DNA of 64,000 nucleotides from an uncultured Thermodesulfobacteriota bacterium (lineage in GTDB: Bacteria > Desulfobacterota > WTBG01 > CAIYCZ01 > CAIRTM01): NCBI GenBank assembly GCA_964621615.1, contig CAZUMW010000002.1, positions 64,286 to 128,285 on the forward strand, in the 5' to 3' direction. Within the stretch, counting starts at the first letter, position 1. The number at the start of each line of letters is the position of its first letter. The translations under genes and the position numbers were made by a program. Positions 24,497 through 39,656 of the stretch are shown piece after piece. The notes beneath the pieces are model-generated. The model saw nothing but the letters and a program-made list of their open reading frames with translations, was not told the DNA's origin and ran no database searches.

Positions 24497-24727
24497 ATGT
24501 CCGGTTGCCCGCACGAGGTCCTTACGCTTGTGCCCAAAGACAGCAATAAGCTTCGCTGCCGACGGTGTCATCTTACGCTTTCGCCTGACGAGCTTGTGAA
24601 CGGCTGCTGCCCCGAATGCCATGAGGTGCGCGGGGAAAAGCACAGCGATTTTGAAAAAGTAGAAGAGGCAGATGATGCACCCACCCGGTACCGCTGCGAC
24701 CGGTGCGGCATGGTGATAGAGTGCTGA
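24497..24727 (+). CDS. Small double zinc-ribbon protein, hypothetical
   Basis: 'CPH...CRRCH...CCPECH...CDRCG'. 76 aa. RBS 'gaggaatat'. Confidence 0.35.
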   Translation: MSGCPHEVLTLVPKDSNKLRCRRCHLTLSPDELVNGCCPECHEVRGEKHSDFEKVEEADDAPTRYRCDRCGMVIEC

Positions 24728-24758
24728 AAGAAATCGCAGGAACAGCGTCAGGAGCATT

Positions 24759-26423
24759 ATGAGCGAATCGGTCCCTTCCCGATGGAACTGCCTTAAAGCC
24801 AACACGGCTCTTCGGCGTGAGCGCGTTGCCCGGCAGCTTCGCCCGGAAGGAAAGCGTATTTCTCAACAGGATATTGTGCAGCTTCTTGAGCTGGTTATTG
24901 AACCCCATGACCGGGTCTGTATTGAGGGCAACAATCAGAAGCAGGCCCAGGTGCTTGCGCGGTCGCTCTGCAACGTCAGCGTGAAAAAAATACACGGATT
25001 GCACATGGTGCAGTCGGCGGTGTCCCTTGATACCCACCTCGACGTTTTTGAAAAAAAGATAGCCAGGAAGCTTGACTGCGCATATGCAGGCCCGCAGCGC
25101 AACCGCCTTGCAGCGATGGTTTTAAGCGGAGCGGTTGAGCTTGGCGCAATTCATACCTATCTTGAACTGTATGCCCGCTATTTCGTTGACCTGACGCCGC
25201 GCGTTGCCTTGATCGCTGCTGAAAAAGCTGACATCGGCGGCAATCTCTACACCGGACCAAATACCGAGGAAACCCCGCTGATCGTGGAGGCGACAAAAGC
25301 CAGGCAGGGTATCGTTATCGTACAGGTGAATGAGCTGGTGGAGCGGGTTCCCCGGATTGATATTCCGGGCGACTGGATTGATTACATTGTCAAAGCAGAT
25401 GAGCCCTGCCGCTGCACCCCGCTGTTTACCCGCGACCCGGCCCGGATAACGGAATGCAGTATTTTAATGGCTATGATGGCTATTAAGGGGATTTACGGGC
25501 CGCTTGAAATACAGTCGCTGAATCACGGCATCGGCTACGACACTGCGGCCATAGAGCTGCTGCTGCCCACCTACGCTGTAGAGCTCGGGCTCTCCGGCAG
25601 GATATGCACCCACTGGCTGCTTAATCCCCACCCCACGCTTATACCCGCGATCGAGTCCGGTATGGTAAGGTCGGTGTACTGCTTCGGCTCAGAGCCCGGC
25701 ATGGAACGATATATCGCTGCGCGGCCAGATGTTTTTTTTACCGGACCGGACGGCACGCTGCGCTCAAACAGAGCATATGCCCAGCTGGCGGGATTCTATG
25801 GAGCCGATATGTTTATCGGATCGACGCTCGAGATCGATCAGCACGGAAACAGCTCGACCGCAACCGGGGACAGCATCGTCGGATTCGGCGGTGCGCCGAA
25901 CCTGGGGGCAAATGCAGCCGGCCGGCGGCACACGACCGGTGCCTGGAGCGAAGTGGGAATGAACTGCCCGATGCTCCGGAACCTGAACGGGGCGGTGCCC
26001 GCAGGCAAGCGGATAGTTGTTCAGATTGTGCCCACAAGCAGAAACGGCACGCACACGTTTGTTGAGCGGCTGAGCGCGTGGGACCTGGCGGAAAAAACCG
26101 GGCTGGACCTGCCGCCCGTAATGATATACGGCAGCGAAATTACCCACCTTGTTACCGAAGCGGGGCTGGCGCACCTGTACCGCTGCGAGACCCTTGAGCG
26201 GCGAAGAGCCTGTATTGCGGCGATTTCGGGTGATTCGCCACTTAAATCATTTGTTAACGCAGCAGCAGTGAACAATCTGCGGAGGCAGGGGCTGGTTCAA
26301 TATCCGGAAGACCTCGGCATAGACCCTGAAGAAGCAACACGCGACCTTCTTGCGGCCCGCTCCCTGCAGGAGCTGGCAGAGATATCGGGAGGGCTGTATG
26401 TCCCGCCGGGATCAGGCGGATGA
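24759..26423 (+). CDS. mdcA: Malonate decarboxylase alpha-subunit (MdcA)-like acyl-transferase, stand-alone
   Basis: Strong family-typical blocks 'AIHTYLELYARYFVDLTP', 'NTEETPLIVEATKARQGIVIVQVNELV...IDIPGDWIDYIV', 'LNPHPTLIPAIESG' and 'FFTGPDGTLRSNR'. No mdcC, mdcD or mdcE genes adjacent. Confidence 0.65.
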   Translation: MSESVPSRWNCLKANTALRRERVARQLRPEGKRISQQDIVQLLELVIEPHDRVCIEGNNQKQAQVLARSLCNVSVKKIHGLHMVQSAVSLDTHLDVFEKKIARKLDCAYAGPQRNRLAAMVLSGAVELGAIHTYLELYARYFVDLTPRVALIAAEKADIGGNLYTGPNTEETPLIVEATKARQGIVIVQVNELVERVPRIDIPGDWIDYIVKADEPCRCTPLFTRDPARITECSILMAMMAIKGIYGPLEIQSLNHGIGYDTAAIELLLPTYAVELGLSGRICTHWLLNPHPTLIPAIESGMVRSVYCFGSEPGMERYIAARPDVFFTGPDGTLRSNRAYAQLAGFYGADMFIGSTLEIDQHGNSSTATGDSIVGFGGAPNLGANAAGRRHTTGAWSEVGMNCPMLRNLNGAVPAGKRIVVQIVPTSRNGTHTFVERLSAWDLAEKTGLDLPPVMIYGSEITHLVTEAGLAHLYRCETLERRRACIAAISGDSPLKSFVNAAAVNNLRRQGLVQYPEDLGIDPEEATRDLLAARSLQELAEISGGLYVPPGSGG

Positions 26424-26547: not shown

Positions 26548-26958
26548 TTACCCGAATGCACCGCTTAAATATTCGCGGGTCATGCGCCTGACCGGACCTT
26601 TAAAAGGCGCACGCCGATCAAGGCGAACGGCCCGTGAGGTCTCAAAGAACACCTCGTCGTTACAATATATAATCTCCCCGCCAGCTTTTATCATTTTCAC
26701 CGCAGAAATCCGCCCTTCAGAGTGCGCTTTGTTCCAGTACACGATATTCATATCCACACCGTAAAGGGAAAGATAAAAAAACATGCTGTTCGGCTGTGAG
26801 GCAAGGGCTGCATGCACGATTTGCGGCAAACCGGCATCGACATAGTGAACTTCGATTTCGGAGCCGATATACCGCGACAACAGGCCGATAGGATAAACGC
26901 TCTCCGCCCGGTCGGGAACGGGTGCGGCTTTCTGCTGTTGAGAACCGTCTTTTTTCAT
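26548..26958 (-). CDS. Hypothetical protein (136 aa)
   Basis: ORF with no recognisable motif. Positioned at the distal end of the 27-37.8 kb operon. Confidence 0.25.
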   Translation of the reverse strand: MKKDGSQQQKAAPVPDRAESVYPIGLLSRYIGSEIEVHYVDAGLPQIVHAALASQPNSMFFYLSLYGVDMNIVYWNKAHSEGRISAVKMIKAGGEIIYCNDEVFFETSRAVRLDRRAPFKGPVRRMTREYLSGAFG

Positions 26959-27051: not shown

Positions 27052-27362
27052 TTATTCATCATTATCTGTATCCTCAATTTCCTGAACATCACCCTCCGGG
27101 CGCTGTGAGGAGATTTTTATGTCCTCGCCTTCTGCTGCAAGCTGCTGATTGTACCAGCTTATAGACAGAGAAAATTTCTCTTTATCTTTTTTCCGCTTTG
27201 CTTTGGCCTCAACGAAAACCCTGTCCTGGGGGTTCAGCGCAAGGTACTCGGAGCCCTGCTGAATATACACCTCCCCTTTTTCAAGGCTTGTGCAGAGATC
27301 TTTGAGATAGGATATTGCTTCGCTGAGCCCCAATGACTTTTTAATGCCGATTTCTTTTTTGT
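27052..27362 (-). CDS. Amphi-Trp-domain small protein A (C-terminal ...DTDNDE)
   Basis: ~100 aa. '...EVYIQQGSEYLALNPQDRVFVEAKAKRKKDKEKFSLSISW' is shared with the paralogue at 32404-32691. Acidic tail ends in Glu. RBS 'aaggaggaaaca'. Confidence 0.5.
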
Positions 27363-27436
27363 CCATGTCTGTTTCCTCCTTGTGTTTAGAGTTTTTATAA
27401 TTAGCGGCCTGACAAATTTCCCCGGTGTTCATGCCC

Positions 27437-28630
27437 CTATGCAAGAGACAGCAGCACGTCAATTACCTTCTGATCGTCCGCAAGCGGTCTGCTGGCATCG
27501 GTAATAAGGGGGGTGTCGATAATCTGCACCCCCAGTTTTTTTATTTTTTGCAGTTGCATCGGCTGAGGATACAGGCCGCTGCGGGAATCGATGAGCACAA
27601 ATTGAAGCAGTTTTTTCACCGGAGCCGCTGTTCCGCATGAGTGTTTTAGATAGGAGACAAGGGTGTGCACGCAGTCATACAAAGACATGCCGAACTGCTC
27701 CGGATCCGGCGACGGATTCGGTATAAACACTTTGGGGCATTCTGTCTCGCTTATCGCCTGCCCGATACCTCCGGGCAGAAGGGTGGCGATCAAACTGGTA
27801 TAAAAGCTGCCGAACGGATAGCAGATAAGATCCGCGCTTTTAATCAGGTCCTGAATTTTGCGCTTAATGGAAACGGCGGCATGTTTTTTTGACCGAAGGC
27901 TTTTGGTGAGAAAAACAGACGCTACCCGGGACTGCAGCTTTGCAAAGGCAGGACCGGTGAGTAAATGCTGGCCGATAACGGTTTTGCCGGAGTCAAGCTG
28001 AGCGCCAAGGTGATATGACAGCCCGGTGACCGGCCGGACGATGCCGCGGGCTTCAACCAGCTTGGAAAACATATAGATGACCGGCTCGATATGGCGCCGG
28101 TTGTTCAGATACCCGGCTGCAATTAAAATATTGCCGATATTGGCTCCGCGCAGATCAAAACCGTGGGGCATTGTGTCGAGAAAGCTGTGGATGTGATTAC
28201 GGATAATCCGACGCATCGGATTGGGGATACCGGTTACCAGGCTGTCCCTGCCGGTTGCCATGCTGAGCAGCTTTGAGCGCAGCTTTTCGCTGCTTTCTGC
28301 CGCAGGCAGGCGGTACGCAAACAGCGAATATACTTCCGGATTTCCGTGCACTGTCTGGTCGGCAAGCGCGTTCAGCCGGTTTCTTATATCGCCGACCGCA
28401 AGCATGTTAAATGCTTTGCGTATGACAGCGGAGCTGCCCCCGGAATCAAACGGGCAAATAATATGTATTGAGTTATGGGTATACTCGGTGAGGCGCCGCG
28501 ACAGCGAGCGCAGGGATGAGCCTCCGCTGAAAAACAGAATGCGCGGGCCGAGGTCCGGAACTCTTTTGAACCGATCGATTCTTACGGCATCCGGAATACT
28601 AACCGTCCTGGTAACTGATGCCCGGTTCAT
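27437..28630 (-). CDS. CofD/YvcK (UPF0052, 2-phospho-L-lactate transferase-like) family protein
   Basis: 'ILFFSGGSSLRSL' and 'PFDSGGSS' glycine-rich loops plus overall CofD/YvcK-like layout. 4-nt start/stop overlap with the upstream gene. Confidence 0.55.
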   Translation of the reverse strand: MNRASVTRTVSIPDAVRIDRFKRVPDLGPRILFFSGGSSLRSLSRRLTEYTHNSIHIICPFDSGGSSAVIRKAFNMLAVGDIRNRLNALADQTVHGNPEVYSLFAYRLPAAESSEKLRSKLLSMATGRDSLVTGIPNPMRRIIRNHIHSFLDTMPHGFDLRGANIGNILIAAGYLNNRRHIEPVIYMFSKLVEARGIVRPVTGLSYHLGAQLDSGKTVIGQHLLTGPAFAKLQSRVASVFLTKSLRSKKHAAVSIKRKIQDLIKSADLICYPFGSFYTSLIATLLPGGIGQAISETECPKVFIPNPSPDPEQFGMSLYDCVHTLVSYLKHSCGTAAPVKKLLQFVLIDSRSGLYPQPMQLQKIKKLGVQIIDTPLITDASRPLADDQKVIDVLLSLA

Positions 28631-29724
28631 GCAGTTATCCTGTCACGCATGTGTTTGATATTTTCGCACACTTTACACGCCTGACTGAAATCGGCTCCGC
28701 CCTCTATAACATATACAGGACACGGGGAAAGGTGTTTAATGTATACATCCTCGGATACAGCGGCTCCGCTGTCGGCAGCACCTGTTTGATAGAAGATACC
28801 GGGGGATTTGATGAAAATTCGCAGCAGCTCGCGCTGCTCTGCGGGGCGTATGGCGTGGCAGCTGAAGCCTGCCGCAGCGCGGTGCCAGTTGAGAATCACC
28901 AGCGCATGAAGAGGAGAAAAAAGTTCAAACGAACCGCTGCCGAAAATGGACTCTATGTCAACGTCGTATTTATGCTCAAGGGTCCAGAGCTCTTCAGCGC
29001 AGAGCCGCAAAAAGCGGTCGCGCTCCTGTGCGGGGATGACAGAGGACAGACAGGGATTGTACAGCGCGGTGCCGGGATTTATGCGAGGAAGCTTTGCAAC
29101 CCCTGCCATGGAAAGCCCCGCTTTCGTCCTGCGTATCAGCAGGCGGTCGTTCGAGACAAATACGGCTCCGCGCTGCATAAGGTGCAGCGCAAGCGTTGAT
29201 TTTCCTGCTCCTGATATGCCGGCAACGGCGATTCCACAACCGTCAAGCGACACGGCGGCAGCATGGCCAAGAAGCCAGCCTCTGTCGAGTTTCCATTGAA
29301 TAAACCGGTTGTTTATAAAATTGACGACCTGATTCAGGTTCTCCCGGCACGGGCCGATTGCTGCATGCAGGCCGCTGCCAAAAAAGAACAGCATGCCCGT
29401 CAGCCGCTTTCTGACAAGCCGCCCGTCCGTAAACTCAACAAACTCCTCTTTTATTTTTGACTTTCCCGGATCGGGCTGCTTGACGGTAAACGTGTATGGA
29501 AGCGCCGGCGAGGGGCCATCGATAATGAGGACATGCATGACGGGCGTGCCAATGTCTGTCAGAAAGCAGCTGAAATAGGACCGGAGGGCCCCTGCAACGC
29601 CGGGCGCGTTGGTCCTGACTGAAATGATACAGTCGCCAAGGCTCAGCAAAAGCGAGTGGGGACACGCCGTGTTGCCGGCAAGACGATCAAAAGCCTTTTT
29701 CAGCGTTGTAGACTGTTTATCCAT
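28627..29724 (-). CDS. HPr kinase/phosphorylase C-terminal-domain-like P-loop kinase
   Basis: 'GHAAAVSLDGCGIAVAGISGAGKSTLALHLMQRGAVFVSNDRLLI' parallels the HprK Walker-A region and the following 'vadD' block. Confidence 0.55.
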   Translation of the reverse strand: MDKQSTTLKKAFDRLAGNTACPHSLLLSLGDCIISVRTNAPGVAGALRSYFSCFLTDIGTPVMHVLIIDGPSPALPYTFTVKQPDPGKSKIKEEFVEFTDGRLVRKRLTGMLFFFGSGLHAAIGPCRENLNQVVNFINNRFIQWKLDRGWLLGHAAAVSLDGCGIAVAGISGAGKSTLALHLMQRGAVFVSNDRLLIRRTKAGLSMAGVAKLPRINPGTALYNPCLSSVIPAQERDRFLRLCAEELWTLEHKYDVDIESIFGSGSFELFSPLHALVILNWHRAAAGFSCHAIRPAEQRELLRIFIKSPGIFYQTGAADSGAAVSEDVYIKHLSPCPVYVIEGGADFSQACKVCENIKHMRDRITA

Positions 29725-30616
29725 GGTTTAATTTTCTGATAACATATTCTGTGTAGAGGCGAGCAGCATCAATTTTGTTTGCTTCAAAAAGTCCGCGAAA
29801 GCCGCCGAATGCAGAAACCTCAAACACAAGGGGGCCCTCTGGCGCTTCCGCTATGTCAACGCAGGTAAAATCAAGGCCGAAAAGCGATTGCGCGCTGTGG
29901 GCAAGATCGATTAACCGGGGCTTGGGGGTAAAGGGCTCATAGGTGCCGCCGTAATGAGTAGTCGTATTCCATGTGTGTTCGGGAGCGACACGGGCGTATG
30001 TTCCCACATACTCACCACCAAGAAAAACAATGCCGAGGTCTCTGCCCGGAATGCTCACTTTTTTCTGTATATACATTACGGTGTTTTCAGCTTTAAAGTG
30101 CTCTAGGCTGTTTTGGGCGTCCGGTCCATGCTCAACAACAGCCATGCCGCGGGCTTTTGAGGTGAACAGCGGTTTGAGCACAGCGGTGCCGAAACGCTTG
30201 ACAGCCTCAGCGGCAACGGAAACCCGTTCGGTAATGACGGTTTCAGGAATGGGTATGCCCCCTTTTTGCAGCTTCAGGGTGCAGGAAAGCCGGTCCAGAG
30301 CAGACCGTATACGGGCGGGCGGGGAAAACATGCGTATGCCGGCCTGGTGCAGAAAATCAAGCATATCAAGCCTGCTGAGCATGTGGTGAGAATACATGCC
30401 GCCCAGCTTTTTTATGATTATGCCGTCCAGATCCGACAGGTCGGTATTGTTATAATACGCGCGGTTCCGGCTGACATCCAGCATAATATCCTCAACCGAT
30501 ATGAGCAGGCGAAAGCCGGTATGCTCAGATATAATATCAGCAATGTGCTCGGAGGACCATTTTCCGGGAATCCCGATAACGCCTATTTTCTTATGTGAAG
30601 CATCCGTTTTTTTCAT
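29717..30616 (-). CDS. RimK-like ATP-grasp ligase
   Basis: ATP-grasp signature stretches 'AVLKPLFTSKARGMAVV', 'MYIQKKVSIPGRDLGIVFLGGEYV' and 'DIAEAPEGPLVFEVSAFGGF'. The likely start is the internal ATG at 30616 (MKKTDASHKKIGVIG). Confidence 0.65.
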   Translation of the reverse strand: MKKTDASHKKIGVIGIPGKWSSEHIADIISEHTGFRLLISVEDIMLDVSRNRAYYNNTDLSDLDGIIIKKLGGMYSHHMLSRLDMLDFLHQAGIRMFSPPARIRSALDRLSCTLKLQKGGIPIPETVITERVSVAAEAVKRFGTAVLKPLFTSKARGMAVVEHGPDAQNSLEHFKAENTVMYIQKKVSIPGRDLGIVFLGGEYVGTYARVAPEHTWNTTTHYGGTYEPFTPKPRLIDLAHSAQSLFGLDFTCVDIAEAPEGPLVFEVSAFGGFRGLFEANKIDAARLYTEYVIRKLNHG

Positions 30617-30644
30617 AAGCCGTGTGTGCGGGGGCGGTTTCAGG

Positions 30645-32384
30645 TTAATAGGTAAGCACATCCCGGGGGAACACAAAGGTATCCCAGGTGTGTTGCGGGT
30701 GCTCGTTTATCCGCTCAAGCAGGTAAATTGAGCGCAGAAACATTGTTTGTGCGAATTTTTTGTTCAGCTCAAATCGGGTAGATGTTATGAGGGAGCGCGC
30801 TACCGCTATCGCCAGCCGTGCGTCAAAGGTATGGTCGCCGTGGAGCCGGGCAAATCGGCGCGCAAATACATAGAATGCGTTTATGATGGCGGTTATCCGT
30901 TTTCTGAGCCCGGGATCAAAGCCGGGCTGGCGGAAGTTTGAAACCAGAAACACGGCGGTATCCTGTACATAGTCAGAGCGCTCAGACCGGTTCAGATCGA
31001 TAAAGTGAATTCTGCCGCTGCTGCTGTTATAAATTATGTTGTCGATATTAAAATCGCCATGAATGAACACAGAAAAAGGAGCGGAAAGCCTGCGGTCTAT
31101 CTGCTGCGTCTGCTGTATTCTCTGATCAAGGGACAGCACGCTCAGGCCGCCGATTTGACGCTCAGGGATTTTAAATGACGGGTGTATGGAGAAAACGTCC
31201 TGCAGACGAGACGCCAGCTGTTTGCTGTAGTGTGCGTTAACGGCCGTATTTTCTTTGGTTGCATTCCATACACGGAGAAGCGTATGCTGGATATGGTGAA
31301 ACGCCTCTGTAAAAAGCTCATCAGGGGCATGAACCATGATGTGCTGGAAGGTTGTACTGCCCAGATATTCGATAAGCAGAGATGAGTGTCGCCCGTCTTT
31401 CTGGAAGGCTAGCACTTTAGGGGGAAGGCCGGGAACGATCTGCTCCCATTGTTCAATATTTTGCAGCTCCCGCTCGAGCTTTCTGTTGCTTCCTTTTTTG
31501 AAGATCACTTTTTGTGCAGACCCGGAGGGGTTTTTTTCATGTATGTGGCCGACCCGGCAGCCCGACTGTGTTCCCCAGATCGATTCAAAGTGAACGTTGT
31601 CGATGCAGGTGTTCATTTCCGAAGACGCCAGCGTCCCTTCAAGCGCTTTGTACTGATGTACTTTGAGCTTCTGGCCCATGGCGGCAAAAATAATCGCCTC
31701 TCCGATGTTGAGCAGCGCATCGCCGATACGCTCAAGATAGCTGAAGATAAACAGCAGGGTAATTCTGTTTTCTACATTCTTACCCCCTCGAATATCTCCG
31801 ATAATACGCTGAAAGACATCGGTATACCGCTCGTCGAGCTGCTGCTCACACCGGCAGATTTCCATAGCCATGGTGATGTTTCTTTTTTCCAGGGCTTTGC
31901 CGATGAGACGCAGGGGGGCGATTACCTCTTTGAATGAACTTTTGACCGGATATTCATGAAGCAGTCCTGTGTCGGAGAGGTAGGCCATCTGATCGACAAT
32001 GTTAACTGTATAGTCGCCGATACGCTCAAGATTTGCCCCGATAATATTGATAGCCCGCACATGATTAATAGTCTGTTTTGACGTATCGCCTGCAGGGCTG
32101 TGTGTGACTCCGCTGAAGCAGTGGTCCTCAATTCTGCTTTTCAGGTTGTCGATATAATCATCGCGGTTGCATATACGATCCACAAGCGATTCGTCCAGCT
32201 GCAGAAGGAATGTCAGCGTGTCCTCAAGCTGTTTGGTTACTTCAACGATAATGAAGGTCAGATCATTGTTAATTGTGTCCAGCAAAACGATGCACCTCCG
32301 TGGCGCGCGTATGCCTGCTGCTGCCGGCAAACAGGCCGCCCGGAACACAGGGTCTGATGCAGGAATCTGTAACGCGCGCAGCAC
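30645..32384 (-). CDS. Fusion protein: N-terminal PhoU-repeat domain + C-terminal aminoglycoside-phosphotransferase/CotS-like kinase
   Basis: Two PhoU-type helices with 'ERIGDYTVNI' and 'ERIGDALLNIGEAI'. The C-terminal half carries the APH-fold catalytic loop 'IHGDFNIDNIIY' and 'IDLNRS'. Confidence 0.55.
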   Translation of the reverse strand: MLRALQIPASDPVFRAACLPAAAGIRAPRRCIVLLDTINNDLTFIIVEVTKQLEDTLTFLLQLDESLVDRICNRDDYIDNLKSRIEDHCFSGVTHSPAGDTSKQTINHVRAINIIGANLERIGDYTVNIVDQMAYLSDTGLLHEYPVKSSFKEVIAPLRLIGKALEKRNITMAMEICRCEQQLDERYTDVFQRIIGDIRGGKNVENRITLLFIFSYLERIGDALLNIGEAIIFAAMGQKLKVHQYKALEGTLASSEMNTCIDNVHFESIWGTQSGCRVGHIHEKNPSGSAQKVIFKKGSNRKLERELQNIEQWEQIVPGLPPKVLAFQKDGRHSSLLIEYLGSTTFQHIMVHAPDELFTEAFHHIQHTLLRVWNATKENTAVNAHYSKQLASRLQDVFSIHPSFKIPERQIGGLSVLSLDQRIQQTQQIDRRLSAPFSVFIHGDFNIDNIIYNSSSGRIHFIDLNRSERSDYVQDTAVFLVSNFRQPGFDPGLRKRITAIINAFYVFARRFARLHGDHTFDARLAIAVARSLITSTRFELNKKFAQTMFLRSIYLLERINEHPQHTWDTFVFPRDVLTY

Positions 32385-32403
32385 AGCTGATCCCCACGGG
32401 ACC

Positions 32404-32691
32404 TTACTCAGCGGCCGGGTCGGGACCGATTACCAGATCTTCTACTGCTCCTGTCTCCTCCAGCCCGTTTTTCCAGGACAATTCGATCTTCAGCTTGACG
32501 CGATCCCTTTTTTTCTTTGCTTTAAGCGTGAATTTGAGCATGCCGGCGGGGGTGACCGCGAACGCATCCCGATCTGAGCGAAGCTCCAGATGTTTTTTCG
32601 AAAATCCCTCGCACAGCGCCTGCAGATATGAGCAGATTGACTGGCAGTCCTGCACCGACTCAAATTTGAACTCTTCCGCCGGTAAGGTCAT
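32404..32691 (-). CDS. Amphi-Trp-domain small protein B (C-terminal ...PDPAAE)
   Basis: 95 aa. 'LKFTLKAKKKRDRVKLKIELSW' parallels protein A 'VFVEAKAKRKKDKEKFSLSISW'. Also ends in Glu. Confidence 0.5.
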   Translation of the reverse strand: MTLPAEEFKFESVQDCQSICSYLQALCEGFSKKHLELRSDRDAFAVTPAGMLKFTLKAKKKRDRVKLKIELSWKNGLEETGAVEDLVIGPDPAAE

Positions 32692-32718: not shown

Positions 32719-33879
32719 CTATGAAAGCCTGCCGGTATACTCCTTAATGACGCTTTGTATGGTGGTTTGGGCCATGATGAGGCTCTTGCGTATTGTCAGG
32801 TTGTTCCAGGCCGGCTGATAGCCTGCCTCCCGCGCCGCTTTTTCCGGGTCCTGAACTTCCGGGTCCTTGACCTTTTCTCCCATATGGGTGTCATCGCCCA
32901 TGAAGATTAAAATCGGGCGCGCACCGGCGCTGAGCGTTTTGTTGTGCCGGTTTACAACGGTGATAAGAAATTCAGTGTATTGCTGGGACTGCGGGTTCCA
33001 CACCTCATAGCCGTCCACATCGTAATCGGCAAGCAGTATCGGCCAGAACTGCTCCGGGTGCGGAATCACGATACCCCCGCCGTGGAGGCGCGTTTCTTCG
33101 ATAATTTCCTCGGCCCGATAGAAATGACTGAGTGGAAAATGTGATTTCATAATATTTTTAGCCGCTTTTATAAGTATCTGCGCATGGTTTATGAGCGCCC
33201 TGTCATGATCGCTTCTAAGCTCATCGAAAAAGTCTCGCAGCATTTTGTTTTTAATCACCTGGGGCGGGGTTTCGGATTCGTGCTTTTCAAACAATGTAAA
33301 AAATTTTCTGGTCGCCGCGCGCACAAAGCGTATAAGGCTTTCAGTGGCTCCTGTTTCGGCAGCCGCCTGCTGAAGCCTGCTTTCAAGCACCGGATCGATA
33401 ATGGTCGCTATCAGTTCCTGCAGCTGTTTTGAGCGGTAGGTAAACGTGTGACCGAGCATTTCTTTGAGAACGTGGGCATTTTTAATACCCCTGTTTCTAA
33501 AGTGAAGCAGCAGCTGGACTTTCCGGTTAAAGCCGGAGGCGTAGCAGTCAACCTCGACGCCCGAAAATTCATTCCAGGACATAAGTATGTTATGCTGAGT
33601 GGGAATGATGAGCTCGGTCTCCCGGTTGGGAAACATGGCCTTTATCCGTTTTTCAATCAGCGAAAGCGGGATGTGCTCGGGATGAAAATGCGTTGCCAGC
33701 ACAGCGCGCTGTTTGGGGAAAAGGCGGTGCGGGGTGGTGATGATTTCCTGCTGCCGCGGTGTAAGGTCGGTGTTGATAATATTTTTATAGGACTTCTCAT
33801 CACGCTCTGACAGTTCAGCAGAGTATATTTCTGTATTTTCAGCGTTTTTTTTTCGGGTGGACTGAGCCCGGGATTCCAT
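32719..33879 (-). CDS. PHP-domain metal-dependent phosphoesterase-like protein
   Basis: PHP motifs in order: 'HFHPEH' (HxH), 'LHGGGIVIPHP', 'DGYEVWN', 'GDDTH'. RBS 'gggaga' before the ATG at 33879. Confidence 0.5.
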   Translation of the reverse strand: MESRAQSTRKKNAENTEIYSAELSERDEKSYKNIINTDLTPRQQEIITTPHRLFPKQRAVLATHFHPEHIPLSLIEKRIKAMFPNRETELIIPTQHNILMSWNEFSGVEVDCYASGFNRKVQLLLHFRNRGIKNAHVLKEMLGHTFTYRSKQLQELIATIIDPVLESRLQQAAAETGATESLIRFVRAATRKFFTLFEKHESETPPQVIKNKMLRDFFDELRSDHDRALINHAQILIKAAKNIMKSHFPLSHFYRAEEIIEETRLHGGGIVIPHPEQFWPILLADYDVDGYEVWNPQSQQYTEFLITVVNRHNKTLSAGARPILIFMGDDTHMGEKVKDPEVQDPEKAAREAGYQPAWNNLTIRKSLIMAQTTIQSVIKEYTGRLS

Positions 33880-34052
33880 TTCGTTCTCCCTGCTGTCGGC
33901 GAGAAGGATTTTTACGCCCAAAAACAGCATAAAAACATAGCATAAAAATGTTAATATGCAGTTAAATTTCAGTTAATTTGATACCGTCTGGAGAGAGGAA
34001 CAAAAGCCGCCCTTGAGAAAACAGAACGCCGGGCGATGGCGAGCGCTAGTCT

Positions 34053-35510
34053 CTAAAAACGTTTCATTTGCCGGTTGCAGTAGTCATACAGCACGCAGCT
34101 GCCGAGATCTGCGGCATCTGCCATGAACAGCTTTGCCCTGCCGCGGCGGGCCATTTTTTTCATGAAGCCGATGCTGTCGCGCTCGCGGGCAAGCAGAAAA
34201 ATACTCAGCGATATCCGGCTTTGCACGAGCTGCTCCGCAGCATGAAGTGATCGCTGCAGCGTGCACTGGTGCGGCGGGAATTGAAAAAACACCGAGCCGC
34301 GCTCCCGGTGCGCGGTCGGCTCTCCGTCGGTTATAAGACATATGCGGCGGCGGTATCCGCTGAAGCGGAAAAGACGGCGGCGGGCGGCTGACAGCGCCTC
34401 CTCGATATTGGTATAGGGGTTTGATTCATCCCACATCAGAAACGGCAGCTCATCGAGAGGCACAGGCGTAACTGATGTTGAAAAGCCGAAGACATCGATG
34501 CGGTCCTGCGGAAAGCGGCTGCGTATAAGGCCTGAAAGCGCAAGGCTTACCTTTTTTGCCGCACGGTAGCGGTTTTCAAAGCGCATCGATTTGCTCAGAT
34601 CGAGCAGTATTACTGTCGCGCAGCGCATGACCGGCTCGCGCTCATACACCTCGAAATCCCCTTCCCGGACCCTTACCGGCAGCTGCGCGCCGGTTCTTTT
34701 GAGCGTATTCATGAGCGATCGTGCAGGGTCGATGCTCTGTGTGTCGCCGAACCGGTACGCCCGGGTGCCTCTTGTCAGGTACGGCTCTGCAGCGGGCGGG
34801 CTTCTGTGTGCCGGGGGCGGTGTGTGGCGGGCGGGGTCAGCCATCTCGCGCAGCATGTTCCAGGCCGTGCGGTGGAGCCCCCGCGGGGCGAGCTTCAGGC
34901 CTGCACCGGTTTTTATTGCAAAGCCCTGTTCAATGAGATTGTCCGGAAGCCGCTTTATGTGTTCCCAGTGCTGCCGGTCCTCAGAACTCAGGGCCGCTTC
35001 GATGTCGCTGCTGTCAATGCACTCCAGATCGTAGCCCCACCGCGCGCGGTGAAGCTGTTTTTCCACGGAATAGGTGAGAAGCACCTTTTCGGCCAGGCGC
35101 ATCAGGGATTCGTGCGGGATAGCTGATTTGTCGGAAGGGCGAAGTATGCGCGCTATGGCGGCGGCGGCCTTTTTGGTGCCGGGCGAGCCTTTGCTCAGGG
35201 TTCCCCCGGAGCGATCCATTACCGGAAGGGCTTCCAGAATGTGCTGGATGTGCCGTGCCCCATCCTTGTCAGGAGCGGCCTCGCTGATCAGCTCGCAGCG
35301 GCGGCTGTGTGTTTTTTCAAAAAGCTGTTTTATCCCCTCAAAGGTCACCGACCCGTCTGCAGAGGCACTCCCCTCGCGCTGCATATGCAAAACTGCGTCA
35401 TCGAGGCTTTCGTGGGAAACGAGCTCACCTGCTAGCGCATCGAGGTCAGGCCCGCTTCGGATTTGCAGCCGGGTTGGGTCGGGCCGTGAAAAATATCGCC
35501 ATGCTTTCAT
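34053..35510 (-). CDS. von Willebrand factor A domain protein (ChlD/CoxE-like)
   Basis: MIDAS 'ILLDLSKSM...' and 'ITDGEPT'. 4-nt overlap with the upstream AAA+ gene. Confidence 0.6.
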   Translation of the reverse strand: MKAWRYFSRPDPTRLQIRSGPDLDALAGELVSHESLDDAVLHMQREGSASADGSVTFEGIKQLFEKTHSRRCELISEAAPDKDGARHIQHILEALPVMDRSGGTLSKGSPGTKKAAAAIARILRPSDKSAIPHESLMRLAEKVLLTYSVEKQLHRARWGYDLECIDSSDIEAALSSEDRQHWEHIKRLPDNLIEQGFAIKTGAGLKLAPRGLHRTAWNMLREMADPARHTPPPAHRSPPAAEPYLTRGTRAYRFGDTQSIDPARSLMNTLKRTGAQLPVRVREGDFEVYEREPVMRCATVILLDLSKSMRFENRYRAAKKVSLALSGLIRSRFPQDRIDVFGFSTSVTPVPLDELPFLMWDESNPYTNIEEALSAARRRLFRFSGYRRRICLITDGEPTAHRERGSVFFQFPPHQCTLQRSLHAAEQLVQSRISLSIFLLARERDSIGFMKKMARRGRAKLFMADAADLGSCVLYDYCNRQMKRF

Positions 35511-36913
35511 GAGCCTGCGCCGTAACGGGAGCTGTGCGGCAGGGTTTGTTTTGTGATTTTGCCCTGCAGAGCCAGTGATTCAAGAATGAACTCGGAAGCG
35601 GACGCCGCTTCGGACGGCGACGGTGTGTGAGCAAACAGAGTGCGTATCACCTCCTTCAGCTCAGGAAACCGGTCCAGCATGCCGGTGTATGCCGAAGCGG
35701 GCATCAGTTCTGATACCTCCCATGCATAAGAGCCCGCCGTGAAGGATTTCAGAAATTGATCGCAGGCGCCGCGCTCTATTGTGTTCCGGAACACCCGCTG
35801 CACGGCTTCATCTATCAGCGCGGCGGTTTTTGTCTCCTCCTCCTGGTCGTCGGCAAAGCTCCATTCTATTTTTCCCTTCATGCAGGAGCTCAGGTGCAGT
35901 ATGTCGGTGATGCGGGGCACCAGTTCGCTTTCGCCAAGCCGAAGCGCCCTGCGAAACGCATTGCTGACAATGGTTTCCATGTTGTGGATGCTCATGCGCA
36001 CGCTGATTCCTGCATATTGGTTGATGTCGGATTTATTTCTGGCCGAGCGGGATATTTCAGCAATGATAGCCTCGATAAACGGGGGCACGGCACACATGTA
36101 TCCGTCATGGGAAAAGGGGGTCATTTCCTGTCTGACGATCCTGATTTCATCACCGGCCTCCAGCGGGTAGTGCGTTCGCACCTGCGCGCCGAAGCGGTCT
36201 TTCAGCGGGGTGATAATCCGACCCCGGCTGGTATAGTCTTCGGGATTTGCCGTGGCGACAATGAATACGTCAAGGGGCAGCGAAACTTTATGGCCGCGAA
36301 TCTGGACATCGCGTTCCTCAAGCAGGTTAAACATGCCGACCTGTATTTTTTCATGCAGGTCGGGAAGTTCATTTATTGAAAAAATACCCCGGTTCGTTCT
36401 GGGGATGAGGCCGTAGTGAATGGCGGCCTCATCGGAAAGATACCGCCCCTCTGCAATTTTTACGGGGTCGATGTCTCCGATCAGATCCGCTATGGTAACA
36501 TCGGGTGTTGCCAGCTTTTCCCCGTAGCGGCGGGAACGGTGAATCCACTCAATGGGCGTTTGTCCTTCACGGCGGCTGATTGTGGAGCGGCACGGGCTGC
36601 ATATCGGTGAAAGCGGATCATCATTTACTTCACAGCCCGCAACCGCAGGAATATATTCATCCAGCAGGCTGACCAGGCTGCGGATAATCCGGGTTTTTGC
36701 CTGTCCCCGCTCACCCAGCAGAATGATGTCGTGCCCGGCGAGAAGAGCGTTTTCAAGGTCCGGAATAACTGTGTCGCCATAGCCGATAATGCCTGAAAAA
36801 ATTGGCTCGTTTTTTTTGATTTTTTCTATCAGATTTGACCGGATTTCCTGTTTTACCGAGCGGGGTGTCCAGCCGCTCTCTTTAAGGGCTGACAGTGTGT
36901 CGGGTTTGCTCAT
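35507..36913 (-). CDS. ChlI/MoxR-like AAA+ ATPase
   Basis: 'GHDIILLGERGQAKTR' Walker A. 'IFSINELPDLHEKIQVGMFNLLEERDVQIRGHKVSLPLDVFIVATANPEDY' matches the Mg-chelatase subunit I sensor/arginine-finger region. Confidence 0.65.
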   Translation of the reverse strand: MSKPDTLSALKESGWTPRSVKQEIRSNLIEKIKKNEPIFSGIIGYGDTVIPDLENALLAGHDIILLGERGQAKTRIIRSLVSLLDEYIPAVAGCEVNDDPLSPICSPCRSTISRREGQTPIEWIHRSRRYGEKLATPDVTIADLIGDIDPVKIAEGRYLSDEAAIHYGLIPRTNRGIFSINELPDLHEKIQVGMFNLLEERDVQIRGHKVSLPLDVFIVATANPEDYTSRGRIITPLKDRFGAQVRTHYPLEAGDEIRIVRQEMTPFSHDGYMCAVPPFIEAIIAEISRSARNKSDINQYAGISVRMSIHNMETIVSNAFRRALRLGESELVPRITDILHLSSCMKGKIEWSFADDQEEETKTAALIDEAVQRVFRNTIERGACDQFLKSFTAGSYAWEVSELMPASAYTGMLDRFPELKEVIRTLFAHTPSPSEAASASEFILESLALQGKITKQTLPHSSRYGAGS

Positions 36914-36943: not shown

Positions 36944-37780
36944 TTAACCGTGCGCATGGCGTGATACAAGCGACGTACATATGTGCTGTGCCTGTATCAG
37001 CAGCCCGGGAGTCAGCTCCCAGGGGGGGAGGTTCTGCATGTCGGCCGTCATCAGCTGCTCATCAAACGGTAAAAAGCCGAGGGCCGGGATGCCGCCGGAC
37101 TGCTGTTCAATAAATTCCCGGTCCGCCTCACTTCTGATTTTATTGCCGACAAGGCATACGCGGCTCAGCTTGATGTCTGCAGCAAGCTCCCTGATTTTAA
37201 GGGCGGTGTCTATGCTGCGGCGGCCCGGCTCGACCACCACAATCAGCGAGTCGACCGCCTGTGCCGTTGCCCGCCCCAGATGCTCTATGCCCGCTTCCAT
37301 ATCCAGGATGACAGCCTCTTTCCGGTACAGCAGCAGATGCTGGACCAGACTTTTGAGCATTGCGCTTTCGGGGCAGATGCACCCCCCCCCGCCCTTTTTG
37401 ACGGTTCCCATGCGAAGAAGCCGGATACCGTCCTTTTCTCTCCAGAGCTTTTCGGGCAGATCGTCGACTTTTGGGTTGAGCTTGAAAAAGGATCCGCTTG
37501 CTCCCGGCTTTGCACCGGTTCGCTCCTCGATAAGATCCTGCATTTCAACAAGAGGTGTTATGTCGCCGTGACCGGGCACGGCCAGGGCGGATCCAAGATT
37601 TGCGTCAGGGTCGGCATCCACTGCAATGACGCTGTAGCCCTCCTGGCTGAATGCCTTGCATAAAAGAGCGGCAAGGGTGGTTTTCCCGACACCGCCTTTT
37701 CCGGTCACGGCTATTTTTATTGAATCGGTCACGGTTCGTGCCTCCTTTGAGCATACAGATGCGGTATTAAAAATAAACAT
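36944..37780 (-). CDS. CooC/AcsF-type (MinD/ParA superfamily) Ni-insertion ATPase-like protein
   Basis: Deviant Walker A 'AVTGKGGVGKTT'. 'GGGCICPE' CxC metal motif characteristic of CooC. Confidence 0.6.
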   Translation of the reverse strand: MFIFNTASVCSKEARTVTDSIKIAVTGKGGVGKTTLAALLCKAFSQEGYSVIAVDADPDANLGSALAVPGHGDITPLVEMQDLIEERTGAKPGASGSFFKLNPKVDDLPEKLWREKDGIRLLRMGTVKKGGGGCICPESAMLKSLVQHLLLYRKEAVILDMEAGIEHLGRATAQAVDSLIVVVEPGRRSIDTALKIRELAADIKLSRVCLVGNKIRSEADREFIEQQSGGIPALGFLPFDEQLMTADMQNLPPWELTPGLLIQAQHICTSLVSRHAHG

Positions 37781-38684: not shown

Positions 38685-39656
38685 CTACTCTCGAAGAAGT
38701 ACTTTGAGCATCAAATCCCCCCGTGTTCCGTCAGGCAGGCGCCTCCCAAGGCCCTGGAGGCGCAGGATCGTGCCTGATGCGGTGCCGGGCGGTACGGTTA
38801 CCCTGTAGAGCCGGCGCTGAAATCCTCGGGGTATGTTGACCACCTTTTTTGTTCCGGTAAAGGATTCAAACGGCGTAATAGTAATGGCGCCGTACATATC
38901 GGGATCATCAGCCCGGCTTACCGGCCTGATGACCTGAAGCCGGTCGGATTTCCGCTTTTCGGTGAACCGTCTGACCTTGCCGGTCAGCCCCATATCCGGG
39001 ATGATGCCGATCCCTTTCAGGAGCACGATTCCGCACACAAAGCCGCCGATGTGCGCCCACCAGGCAATTCCTGTGGCGGACGAGGCGGTGCCGGCCGCAT
39101 TGACAAACTGCAGCAGAAACCACACCCCAAGAAACAAAAATGCGGGAACCTCGATAAAATACGGAATAAAAAATATGGGAATAAAAGTAAGTATTTTTGC
39201 GTGGGGAAACAGCATGAAATAGGCCCCCATAACCCCGGCAATTGCCCCGCTTGCCCCGATTATAGGTGCGTTAGCGCTCATGTTGAGCAGAAGATGGAAT
39301 GCCCCCGAGGCAACCCCGCACAGCAGGTAAAATATCAGATAGCGAAGAGGGCCGAGGCGGTCTTCGATATTGTCACCGAAAATATACAGCATCCACATGT
39401 TAAGCAAAAGATGCATGACGCCGCCGTGGAGAAACATAAATGATAGAAAAGAAAAAACCTGAAAAAAAAGGGGGATCTGTGAAGCGATGTCGCCGGCAAA
39501 GTAGCGTGCGGGCACCAGTCCGTAGAGATAAAAAAAGCGGCTGATATCGGGCCCCTTTGACAGCTCTATCAGGAAAACCCCCACGTTGGCGGCTATAATG
39601 CCCGTGTTGACGACCGGATAGTTTTTGCGAGGGGTGGTGTCCCTGAGCGGTATCAT
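38685..39656 (-). CDS. Rhomboid-family intramembrane serine protease fused to a DnaJ C-terminal-like domain
   Basis: Rhomboid 'GASGAIAGVMGAYF' (GxSG) and a downstream His within ~6 TM helices. The C-terminal ~90 aa 'RLYRVTVPPGTASGTILRLQGLG...GDLMLKV' resembles a DnaJ C-terminal peptide-binding domain. Confidence 0.55.
   Translation of the reverse strand: MIPLRDTTPRKNYPVVNTGIIAANVGVFLIELSKGPDISRFFYLYGLVPARYFAGDIASQIPLFFQVFSFLSFMFLHGGVMHLLLNMWMLYIFGDNIEDRLGPLRYLIFYLLCGVASGAFHLLLNMSANAPIIGASGAIAGVMGAYFMLFPHAKILTFIPIFFIPYFIEVPAFLFLGVWFLLQFVNAAGTASSATGIAWWAHIGGFVCGIVLLKGIGIIPDMGLTGKVRRFTEKRKSDRLQVIRPVSRADDPDMYGAITITPFESFTGTKKVVNIPRGFQRRLYRVTVPPGTASGTILRLQGLGRRLPDGTRGDLMLKVLLRE

What the first reader, a model, noticed from the sequence alone, without database searches (positions are those of the whole stretch)
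27052..32691. Two paralogous ~100-aa amphi-Trp-like proteins, both ending in Glu and bracketing the enzyme genes
The paralogues share a conserved basic stretch plus 'L(S/K)IxxSW', which is the single Trp that gives the family its name, and each has a short acidic C-terminal tail ending in Glu. Duplicated small proteins flanking modifying enzymes is the typical layout for substrate or carrier proteins, such as RiPP precursors, Pup/ubiquitin-like tags and RimK substrates.
Basis: inference. Interest (0 to 1): 0.6.

Follow-up and report, generated by a model that had tools for sequence, protein, structure and literature searches.

The report
GAK-operon amphi-Trp partner protein pair
The two small genes are real paralogues, the "amphi-Trp" proteins of a widespread but uncharacterised enzyme operon that NCBI calls the GAK system, but the shared terminal glutamate is a local coincidence and not a conserved modification site.

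Summary
Genes 32404-32691 (95 aa) and 27052-27366 (104 aa), both on the minus strand, are paralogous amphi-Trp proteins. They flank four enzyme genes: a PhoU+APH-like kinase, an ATP-grasp, HprK-related kinase B and a CofD-like protein.

NCBIfam already models this set as the "GAK system" (TIGR04354-04357), so the association is known at database level. No paper describes a function.

In 80 related genome loci the order X403, amphi-Trp A, kinase, ATP-grasp, HprK-B, CofD-like, amphi-Trp B recurs. The two copies belong to distinct orthologous classes.

- Class A: S 18, E 10 of 60.
- Class B: K 15, E 7 of 48.
- 150 family representatives: K 47, E 22.

Tails vary from acidic to Lys/Ala/Pro-rich. 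This argues against RimK-, LysW- or Pup-like C-terminal chemistry.

What is conserved is:
- a helix plus four-strand core with an invariant Trp and a basic hairpin;
- a class A N-terminal FxhESxQD motif;
- a short post-Trp strand (class B "KISSxEP").

Most likely these are dedicated protein partners or acceptors of the enzyme set, recognised through internal features. That mechanism is inferred, not shown.

The parts
32404..32691 (-). Amphi-Trp protein, class A (95 aa, stop included). N-terminal motif FKFESVQD at 32647-32670, invariant Trp73 at 32473-32475, post-Trp strand LVIGP at 32422-32436, ends ...PDPAAE.
   Evidence: TIGR04354 at 65.5 bits against cut-off 31. PF20068. GGGAGG Shine-Dalgarno sequence followed by ATG. 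Class A conservation: F 58/60, E 49/60 (Asp or Glu 56/60), S 55/60, Q 58/60, D 59/60, W 60/60. Motif coordinates.
27052..27366 (-). Amphi-Trp protein, class B (104 aa, stop included). Trp71 at 27154-27156, conserved post-Trp motif IKISSQRP at 27097-27120, acidic disordered tail at 27055-27096 ending ...DTDNDE.
   Evidence: TIGR04354 at 54.3 bits. AAGGAGG Shine-Dalgarno sequence followed by ATG. AlphaFold2 model with pLDDT 82: helix 14-30, strands 33-37, 40-44, 50-59, 62-71, low confidence from residue 72. Motif conservation.
30645..32384 (-). Kinase with two N-terminal PhoU domains and a C-terminal APH/choline-kinase-like domain. Catalytic HGDFNIDN at residues 442-449 and FIDLN at 461-465 are intact.
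   Evidence: PF01895 PhoU E = 1.6e-24 and PF01636 APH E = 3.6e-8. Motifs located. Present in 77 of 81 loci.
29717..30676 (-). GAK-system ATP-grasp enzyme. The likely start is the ATG at 30616 (299 aa).
   Evidence: TIGR04356 at 420 bits against cut-off 300. The next best families, MptN at 154.5, RimK family at 105.5 and LysX at 95.5 bits, are all below their cut-offs.
28627..29724 (-). HprK-related kinase B, with P-loop GISGAGKST at residues 169-177.
   Evidence: TIGR04355 at 440 bits against cut-off 200. Motif located. Its start overlaps the ATP-grasp stop and its stop overlaps the CofD-like start.
27437..28630 (-). GAK-system CofD-like protein (YvcK/CofD superfamily).
   Evidence: TIGR04357 at 513 bits against cut-off 340, and PF01933 CofD E = 2.6e-34.
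32719..33930 (-). X403, a conserved 403-aa protein with no family model and the first gene of the unit. It has 64 invariant columns, many of them His, Asp or Glu. Inferred to be a phosphoesterase-type component.
   Evidence: No Pfam, NCBIfam, PDB or PADLOC hit. Present in 56 loci, where the amphi-Trp gene that follows it is class A in 51 and another amphi-Trp copy in 3. Never co-occurs with the His_Phos_1 plus Metallophos pair that occupies the system in 10-11 proteobacterial loci.

Best explanation
The two genes are the class A and class B amphi-Trp subunits of a GAK-system operon: X403, amphi-Trp A, PhoU/APH-like kinase, ATP-grasp, HprK-related kinase B, CofD-like, amphi-Trp B.

Shown:
- Each protein has a small folded core, one helix packed on a four-stranded antiparallel sheet, with a Lys-rich hairpin and an invariant Trp.
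- After the core come a roughly 10-residue linker, a short conserved strand-like motif, and a disordered tail that is free to vary in length, charge and last residue.
- The A and B copies are separate orthologous lineages that travel with the enzyme genes across many phyla.

Inferred:
- They are the dedicated non-catalytic protein partners of the enzyme set, most likely the protein acceptors or docking targets of a phosphorylation/dephosphorylation-centred modification cycle.
- That cycle would involve two kinases, a phosphoesterase-type protein, a glutamate-ligase-like ATP-grasp and a CofD-like phosphotransferase.
- Recognition would be through the folded domain and internal class-specific motifs (class A N-terminal FxhESxQD, class B KISSxEP on the flexible arm), not through the C-terminal residue.
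- The terminal Glu shared by the two window proteins is a by-product of acidic tails in this lineage.
For: Identity:
- All four GAK models pass their curated cut-offs.
- Both small proteins pass TIGR04354 and PF20068.

Linkage:
- 554 of 600 pattern-matched stretches in a species-level genome collection encode an ATP-grasp relative. The 80 best come from Thermodesulfobacteriota, Nitrospinota, Planctomycetota, Zixibacteria, Ignavibacteria, Spirochaetia, SAR324, and Alpha- and Gammaproteobacteria.
- Gene order is conserved.
- Of 49 well-flanked loci, class A is present in 45 and class B in 33.
- One Nitrospina MAG has HprK-B and class B in a single stop-free ORF.

Architecture:
- AlphaFold2 gives 64 residues with pLDDT of 90 or more in the core and low confidence after the Trp.
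- Class-specific conserved motifs were found.

Enzymes:
- The kinases look active, with intact catalytic motifs.
- X403 is replaced by two phosphatase genes in proteobacterial loci. This indicates that a phospho-cycle is part of the system.

Expression:
- Both small genes have their own strong Shine-Dalgarno sequences, while the enzyme genes overlap one another.
- In the one published mention, an amphi-Trp domain protein is among the 20 most abundant proteins of Dissulfuribacter thermophilus (PMC13490349).

Precedent, from my own knowledge and not tested here: HprK family kinases phosphorylate the small proteins HPr and Crh, and in Bacillus subtilis crh lies in the same operon as the CofD-like yvcK.
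Against: - No modification has been observed, and there is no literature on the system.
- The candidate acceptor residues are not invariant. The class A Ser is Ala in 3 and Phe in 1 of 60. The class B motif Ser/Thr is present in about two thirds of 48, and the corresponding position in the window's own class A protein is Gly-Pro.
- ESxQD could simply be a helix N-cap.
- Desulfonatrono* loci lack HprK-B next to class B, yet keep the motif in 2 of 3 cases.
- The nearest characterised relatives of the ATP-grasp (MptN) and of CofD act on small-molecule cofactors, so the enzymes may not touch the proteins at all.
- The amphi-Trp fold did not match HPr or any other solved structure.
Confidence: 0.4

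Rival explanations
1. The amphi-Trp proteins are C-terminal substrates or carriers. The RimK-like ATP-grasp would extend or load the terminal Glu, as RimK does on ribosomal protein S6, LysX on LysW, or the Pup ligase on Pup.
For: Both window proteins end in Glu after acidic tails. The ATP-grasp is related to the RimK, LysX and MptN glutamate ligases. Terminal Glu occurs in 15-17% of family members, against about 3% for long ORFs in the same loci.
Against: - The terminal residue is not conserved in either class or in 150 family representatives. Lys is the commonest ending in class B.
- The closest relatives end in S, D and E.
- Proteobacterial class A tails are basic, for example ...KPLTVKT and ...GNLSIG.
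- Tail length is 2-128 residues and net charge runs from -18 to +17.
- The ATP-grasp scores far below the RimK (58 against 331) and LysX (95.5 against 275.6) equivalog cut-offs.
Confidence: 0.04
2. Non-substrate adaptor, regulator or scaffold. The amphi-Trp proteins would bind and organise or regulate the enzymes, or self-assemble through edge-strand or donor-strand pairing of the post-Trp strand. The variable tails would act as spacers or polyanion/polycation-binding bristles. The enzymes themselves would make a small molecule.
For: - Conservation is concentrated in the folded core and in a strand-like [LIF]-x-[IV] element, not in any single reactive residue.
- The post-Trp strand does not dock confidently onto its own domain in the monomer model, with pLDDT about 63.
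- Tails are hypervariable, including histone-H1-like Lys/Ala/Pro-rich repeats.
- Some loci carry several copies, up to four.
- A family member is very abundant in one proteome.
- The closest enzyme relatives, MptN and CofD, act on small-molecule cofactors.
Against: - No oligomer or complex prediction could be run.
- No fold match to any known scaffold or adaptor.
- The tight and ancient linkage to kinases and phosphatases is equally expected for substrates.
Confidence: 0.35
3. RiPP-type precursor peptides matured by the ATP-grasp, in the manner of graspetides.
For: Small duplicated genes sit next to an ATP-grasp. There is a weak hit to the ATP-grasp ribosomal peptide maturase family (TIGR04187, E = 1.4e-6).
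Against: - That hit scores 27.8 bits against a cut-off of 350 and is far weaker than the RimK and MptN hits.
- The proteins have a confidently folded 70-residue domain conserved across phyla, not a leader-plus-variable-core layout.
- No protease, exporter or PqqD-like gene is conserved in the loci.
Confidence: 0.02

Closest known systems
NCBIfam/TIGRFAMs 'GAK system' (TIGR04354 amphi-Trp, TIGR04355 HprK-related kinase B, TIGR04356 ATP-grasp, TIGR04357 CofD-like, TIGR04358 XXXCH domain) and Pfam PF20068
   Same: All four core models are matched above their curated cut-offs, and the gene neighbourhood is the one the family names imply.
   Different: - The database families carry no function (model type 'hypoth_equivalog') and no paper exists.
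- The window lacks the XXXCH-domain paralogue found in 26 loci.
- X403 and the PhoU-kinase are conserved members without a GAK-specific model.
- The split into class A and class B is not captured by the single amphi-Trp model.
RimK and ribosomal protein S6 (C-terminal poly-glutamylation)
   Same: A RimK-family ATP-grasp is encoded near small proteins that, in this genome, end in acidic tails with a terminal Glu.
   Different: The terminal Glu and the acidic tail are not conserved. The ATP-grasp is closer to MptN than to RimK and is well below the RimK equivalog cut-off.
LysW/LysX amino-group carrier protein system
   Same: It combines an ATP-grasp, a kinase and a small protein with a flexible C-terminal arm. 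LysX is a detectable relative of the ATP-grasp (E = 3e-27).
   Different: From my own knowledge, LysW is a zinc-ribbon protein of about 54 aa with a conserved C-terminal EDWGE. The amphi-Trp proteins have a different predicted fold, no Cys4 cluster and no conserved C-terminal residue.
HPr/Crh with HPr kinase/phosphorylase, and the Bacillus subtilis yvcJ-yvcK-whiA-crh operon
   Same: An HprK-family P-loop kinase and a CofD/YvcK-family protein are encoded with a protein of about 90-100 aa that has an antiparallel four-stranded sheet plus helix. The operon analogy comes from my own knowledge.
   Different: No sequence or Foldseek similarity to HPr was found. The candidate Ser is not invariant. 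GAK adds an ATP-grasp, a PhoU-kinase and X403.
Cofactor tail-building enzymes CofD, CofF and MptN (F420 and tetrahydrosarcinapterin)
   Same: The closest characterised relatives of two GAK enzymes are a phospho-alcohol transferase (CofD) and alpha-L-glutamate ligases acting on cofactor tails (MptN E = 3e-45, CofF E = 1e-5).
   Different: Scores are far below the equivalog cut-offs. No CofC-type nucleotidyltransferase or other cofactor genes are conserved in the loci. The small proteins have no counterpart in those pathways.

Membership tests
GAK system (NCBIfam) | ATP-grasp matching TIGR04356 above its cut-off | tested here: met
   420 bits against cut-off 300.
GAK system (NCBIfam) | HprK-related kinase B (TIGR04355) and CofD-like protein (TIGR04357) in the same gene cluster | tested here: met
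   440 bits against 200 and 513 bits against 340. The genes are adjacent and overlapping.
GAK system (NCBIfam) | One or more amphi-Trp domain proteins (TIGR04354) in the cluster | tested here: met
   65.5 and 54.3 bits against cut-off 31. W is invariant in 60/60 class A and 47/48 class B homologues.
GAK system (NCBIfam) | XXXCH-domain protein (TIGR04358) | tested here: not met
   No window ORF falls in the XXXCH cluster. That cluster is present in only 26 of the 56 X403-bearing loci, so the component is optional.
RimK substrate type (S6-like) | Conserved C-terminal Glu or acidic terminus across orthologues | tested here: not met
   Terminal E in 10/60 class A, 7/48 class B and 22/150 representatives. 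20 of 48 class B proteins have net-positive last 15 residues.
RimK substrate type (S6-like) | Ligase is a RimK equivalog | tested here: not met
   PRK10446 at 58.2 bits against cut-off 331.
LysW-type amino-group carrier protein | Conserved C-terminal Glu attachment site, with a LysX-equivalog ligase | tested here: not met
   The C-terminus is variable. LysX model at 95.5 bits against cut-off 275.6. The predicted fold is helix plus four strands.
Pup/ubiquitin-like tag | Conserved C-terminal Gly-Gly-Gln/Glu or Gly-Gly, with a Pup-ligase or E1-like enzyme | tested here: not met
   No such terminus in either class. The operon enzymes are kinases, an ATP-grasp and a CofD-like protein.
RiPP precursor (graspetide type) | ATP-grasp of the peptide-maturase family, and a precursor with a leader plus variable core | tested here: not met
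   TIGR04187 at 27.8 bits against cut-off 350. The precursor candidate has a conserved folded domain with pLDDT above 90.
HPr/Crh phosphocarrier family | HPr fold and sequence family with a conserved phospho-Ser site | tested here: not met
   No HPr family hit in Pfam or NCBIfam. No Foldseek or profile hit to any HPr structure.
Covalently modified substrate of the GAK enzymes (any site) | Enzyme-dependent mass change on the protein | not testable with these tools
   This needs mass spectrometry or an in-vitro assay.

The most novel reading that the evidence does not exclude
The amphi-Trp proteins are swinging-arm carrier or acceptor proteins for a previously unknown protein-linked modification built with cofactor-tail chemistry.

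In this reading, a hydroxyl on the flexible post-Trp arm or on the N-terminal motif is phosphorylated, or receives a phospho-alcohol group from the CofD-like transferase. That chemistry is analogous to phosphopantetheinylation of ACP. The group is then capped with glutamate by the MptN-like ATP-grasp and removed by X403 or the phosphatases.

This would be a new kind of reversible phosphodiester/glutamyl protein modification, present in more than ten bacterial phyla.
Probability: 0.1. Interest if true: 0.85.

Novelty: new member of a known kind. Interest (0 to 1): 0.4.

Why it matters
The GAK system is a widespread operon, with relatives confirmed at 554 places in a collection of 185,579 species genomes across many phyla. 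It has curated family models but no experimental or published functional information.

This work removes an attractive but wrong lead, C-terminal glutamylation. It also sharpens what an experiment should target:
- two distinct amphi-Trp classes with different conserved motifs;
- a conserved unmodelled protein (X403) that is interchangeable with a pair of phosphatases;
- a universal core of ATP-grasp, PhoU-kinase and class A amphi-Trp.

If the small proteins prove to be covalently modified, that would reveal a new protein-modification pathway. If not, they are a new family of enzyme adaptors or scaffolds.

Tried and rejected
- The word-indexed homologue search with class A alone returned only itself. 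An alignment query was needed.
- X403 as a PHP-type phosphoesterase. I suspected this from its HxH...H...E...H...H...DxH pattern. The hhalign comparison of the X403 profile with E. coli YcdX gave probability 0.3%. No member hit any relevant Pfam family even at E = 10, and the profile matched nothing in the PDB. The idea is unsupported.
The single-sequence run gave pLDDT 34.5 and is unusable.
- Foldseek of the amphi-Trp model against the PDB gave nothing better than E = 2.
- The amphi-Trp profile against PDB sequences matched only de novo designed Ig-like beta proteins (E = 7e-5). I read this as idealised beta-meander sequence resemblance, not homology.
- Anti-phage defence role: no operon gene hit PADLOC. 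Only the upstream ParA-like gene gave three weak hits.
- Structured RNA in the window: none above the Rfam gathering thresholds.
- Promoter and terminator scans were at or near the numbers found in shuffled sequence.
- MoxR/VWA as part of the system: not conserved in the other loci.
- Literature searches for amphi-Trp, GAK system and the TIGR/PF accessions found only one incidental proteomics table entry.


Full report
**What is there**

The minus strand of the window between 33930 and 27052 carries a compact gene row:
- X403 (32719-33930).
- A 95-aa gene (32404-32691).
- A 579-aa protein with two PhoU domains and an APH-like kinase domain (30645-32384).
- An ATP-grasp (29717-30616/30676).
- An HprK-like P-loop kinase (28627-29724).
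- A CofD-like protein (27437-28630).
- A 104-aa gene (27052-27366).

The enzyme genes overlap or abut one another. The two small genes each have their own strong Shine-Dalgarno sequence followed by ATG.

The ORF list extends the downstream small gene to 136 aa from a TTG. The ATG at 27366 fits the ribosome-binding site and fits the conserved Met-x-Lys-Lys-Glu start seen in homologues.

**Check of the observation**

The two small proteins align at 30% identity over 56 residues, E = 9e-10. Both pass the curated thresholds of the amphi-Trp models TIGR04354 and PF20068.

Each has a single Trp, a Lys-rich stretch before it, and an acidic tail ending in Glu. They flank four enzyme genes. The only imprecision is the register of the quoted motif in the downstream copy.

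**It is a named database system**

NCBIfam calls the ATP-grasp, the CofD-like protein and the P-loop kinase 'GAK system ATP-grasp enzyme', 'GAK system CofD-like protein' and 'HprK-related kinase B'. All score far above their cut-offs.

The association of amphi-Trp proteins with these enzymes is therefore already recorded. It is recorded only as hypothetical equivalogs. Full-text searches found no paper on the system or the domain, apart from one proteomics table that lists an amphi-Trp domain protein among the 20 most abundant proteins of Dissulfuribacter thermophilus.

**Comparative anatomy**

A scan of one genome per species with an ATP-grasp alignment confirmed relatives at 554 places. I analysed the 80 best loci, which span at least ten phyla or classes.

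I called ORFs in all of them. I then searched with an iterated amphi-Trp HMM and with the window's other proteins.

The order X403, amphi-Trp, PhoU-kinase, ATP-grasp, HprK-B, CofD-like, amphi-Trp recurs. Among 49 loci with enough flank:
- 45 have a class A copy, and 39 of these have it directly upstream of the PhoU-kinase.
- 33 have a class B copy.
- 24 show the same bracketing arrangement as the window.

The two window proteins belong to different orthologous classes.

Class A is about 90-100 aa. It has a nearly invariant N-terminal F-x-h-E-S-x-Q-D motif (F 58/60, E 49/60 with Asp or Glu in 56/60, S 55/60, Q 58/60, D 59/60). It often ends within a few residues of a [LIF]-x-[IV] strand.

Class B starts M-x-K-K-E. 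After the Trp and a roughly 10-residue acidic linker it carries a [LF]-K-I-S-S-x-E-P-E motif, followed by a tail.

A third amphi-Trp-like paralogue with a C-terminal XXXCH domain (TIGR04358) lies upstream of X403 in 26 loci. It is absent from the window.

**Test of the terminal-Glu idea**

It is not conserved:
- Class A proteins end in S 18, E 10, T 6, G 6, A 5, R 4, K 4, D 3 and others of 60.
- Class B proteins end in K 15, E 7, A 6, G 4 and others of 48.
- An exhaustive HMMER search of 1.84 billion representative proteins found 2189 family clusters. The 150 best end in K 47, E 22, A 17, S 12, D 10.
- The nearest relatives of the window (L001 and L002, 62-64% ATP-grasp identity) end in S or D for class A and E or D for class B.

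Tails after the domain run from 1 to 128 residues. They range from strongly acidic to Lys/Ala/Pro-rich, with net charge from -18 to +17. Proteobacterial class A proteins have basic ends such as ...KPLTVKT.

Terminal Glu is enriched, at about 15-17% against about 3% for long ORFs in the same loci. This is what acidic tails would produce without a fixed reactive residue. C-terminal chemistry of the RimK, LysW or Pup kind is therefore not supported. In addition, the ATP-grasp is far below the RimK and LysX equivalog cut-offs and is closest to MptN.

**Structure**

With a 43-sequence alignment, AlphaFold2 models class B with mean pLDDT 82. There are 64 residues at pLDDT 90 or more: helix 14-30 and strands 33-37, 40-44, 50-59 and 62-71, the last strand ending at the invariant Trp.

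Confidence falls to about 63 over the linker and KISS motif and to about 50 in the tail. The protein is thus a small folded domain with a flexible arm.

Foldseek found no solved structure better than E = 2. A sequence profile matched only de novo designed beta proteins. The other structure libraries were unavailable.

**The rest of the system**

The PhoU-kinase keeps the HxDxxxxN and downstream Asp motifs. HprK-B keeps its P-loop.

X403 is present in 56 loci and has 64 invariant columns rich in His, Asp and Glu. It matches nothing in Pfam, NCBIfam, PADLOC or the PDB. My PHP-phosphoesterase guess was not supported by hhalign, and single-sequence AlphaFold2 failed.

In 10-11 proteobacterial loci X403 is absent, and a histidine-phosphatase gene plus a metallophosphoesterase gene sit in the operon instead. 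The two sets never overlap. I infer that X403 fills a phosphoesterase-type role and that the system includes a phosphorylation/dephosphorylation cycle.

One Nitrospina MAG encodes HprK-B and class B amphi-Trp in one stop-free ORF. This is weak evidence of physical association.

The MoxR/VWA pair upstream in the window is not conserved with the system.

**Mechanism**

Shown:
- The family identity of both small proteins.
- The A/B class split.
- The conserved linkage to the enzymes.
- The folded core with a flexible, variable tail.
- The non-conservation of the C-terminus.

Inferred:
- The amphi-Trp proteins are the dedicated protein partners of the enzyme set.
- I favour the reading that they are acceptors or docking targets of the kinase/phosphatase/ligase chemistry, recognised through the domain and the internal class-specific motifs (confidence about 0.4).
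- The main rival is that they are non-substrate adaptors or self-assembling scaffolds while the enzymes make a small molecule (about 0.35).

Against the acceptor model:
- No candidate residue is invariant.
- ESxQD may be a helix cap.
- The window's own class A protein has Gly-Pro where class B has Ser-Ser.
- Loci lacking HprK-B keep the KISS motif.
- The closest enzyme relatives act on cofactors.

The data cannot separate these readings. Mass spectrometry after co-expression and complex prediction would.

**Verdict**

This is a real feature, correctly spotted. It is a new member of a database-defined but experimentally untouched system.

Interest is moderate. The locus itself is ordinary for its family, but the family is widespread functional dark matter with an unusual enzyme combination.

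Noticed in passing
window 32719-33930 (-): X403 is a conserved 403-aa protein with 64 invariant columns, many of them His, Asp or Glu, and no hit in Pfam, NCBIfam, PADLOC or the PDB. It is present in 56 loci, and in 54 of these it is the gene just before an amphi-Trp gene (class A in 51). It never co-occurs with the His_Phos_1 plus Metallophos gene pair in proteobacterial GAK loci.
   Followed up: partly
L052:7224-7814, L053:274-786, L062:6075-6623, and a cluster of 26 loci about 3.8 kb upstream of the ATP-grasp: A third amphi-Trp-like paralogue has a C-terminal XXXCH domain (TIGR04358) ending in ...C-H-x-x-[HY]-K. It is encoded just upstream of X403 and is absent from the window.
   Followed up: partly
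L006:1010-2443 (Nitrospina sp. MAG): HprK-related kinase B (residues 9-359) and a class B amphi-Trp domain (379-444) lie in one stop-free ORF. This is either a natural fusion or a lost stop codon.
   Followed up: partly
L035:7926-8203: The class A amphi-Trp gene is split into two overlapping ORF fragments of 52 and 71 aa. This is a frameshift, pseudogene or assembly error.
   Followed up: no
L020, L036, L041, L046, L057, L060 (mostly Desulfonatronovibrio/Desulfonatronospira MAGs): These loci have ATP-grasp followed directly by CofD-like, with no HprK-B between them. Class B still keeps a KISS or EIST motif in two of the three loci where it is present.
   Followed up: no
L048, L063, L069, L037, L053 class B genes: Some class B tails are long Lys/Ala/Pro-rich repeats resembling histone H1 or AlgP, instead of acidic tails.
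   Followed up: no
window 34053-36913 (-) and 36944-37780 (-): A MoxR-like AAA+ ATPase, a VWA-domain protein and a ParA/MinD-like ATPase lie directly upstream on the same strand. This trio does not accompany the GAK genes in the other loci.
   Followed up: partly
window 24497-26423 (+): A malonate decarboxylase alpha-subunit-like gene scores 779.7 bits against the TIGR01110 cut-off of 789.15. It is preceded by a 76-aa ORF with two CxxC pairs and no family hit.
   Followed up: no
window 38685-39656 (-): A rhomboid protease domain is fused to a DnaJ C-terminal-like region.
   Followed up: no
window 26548-26958 (-): A 136-aa ORF just downstream of class B on the same strand has no Pfam or NCBIfam hit. 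It is unclear whether it is a gene or belongs to the unit.
   Followed up: no
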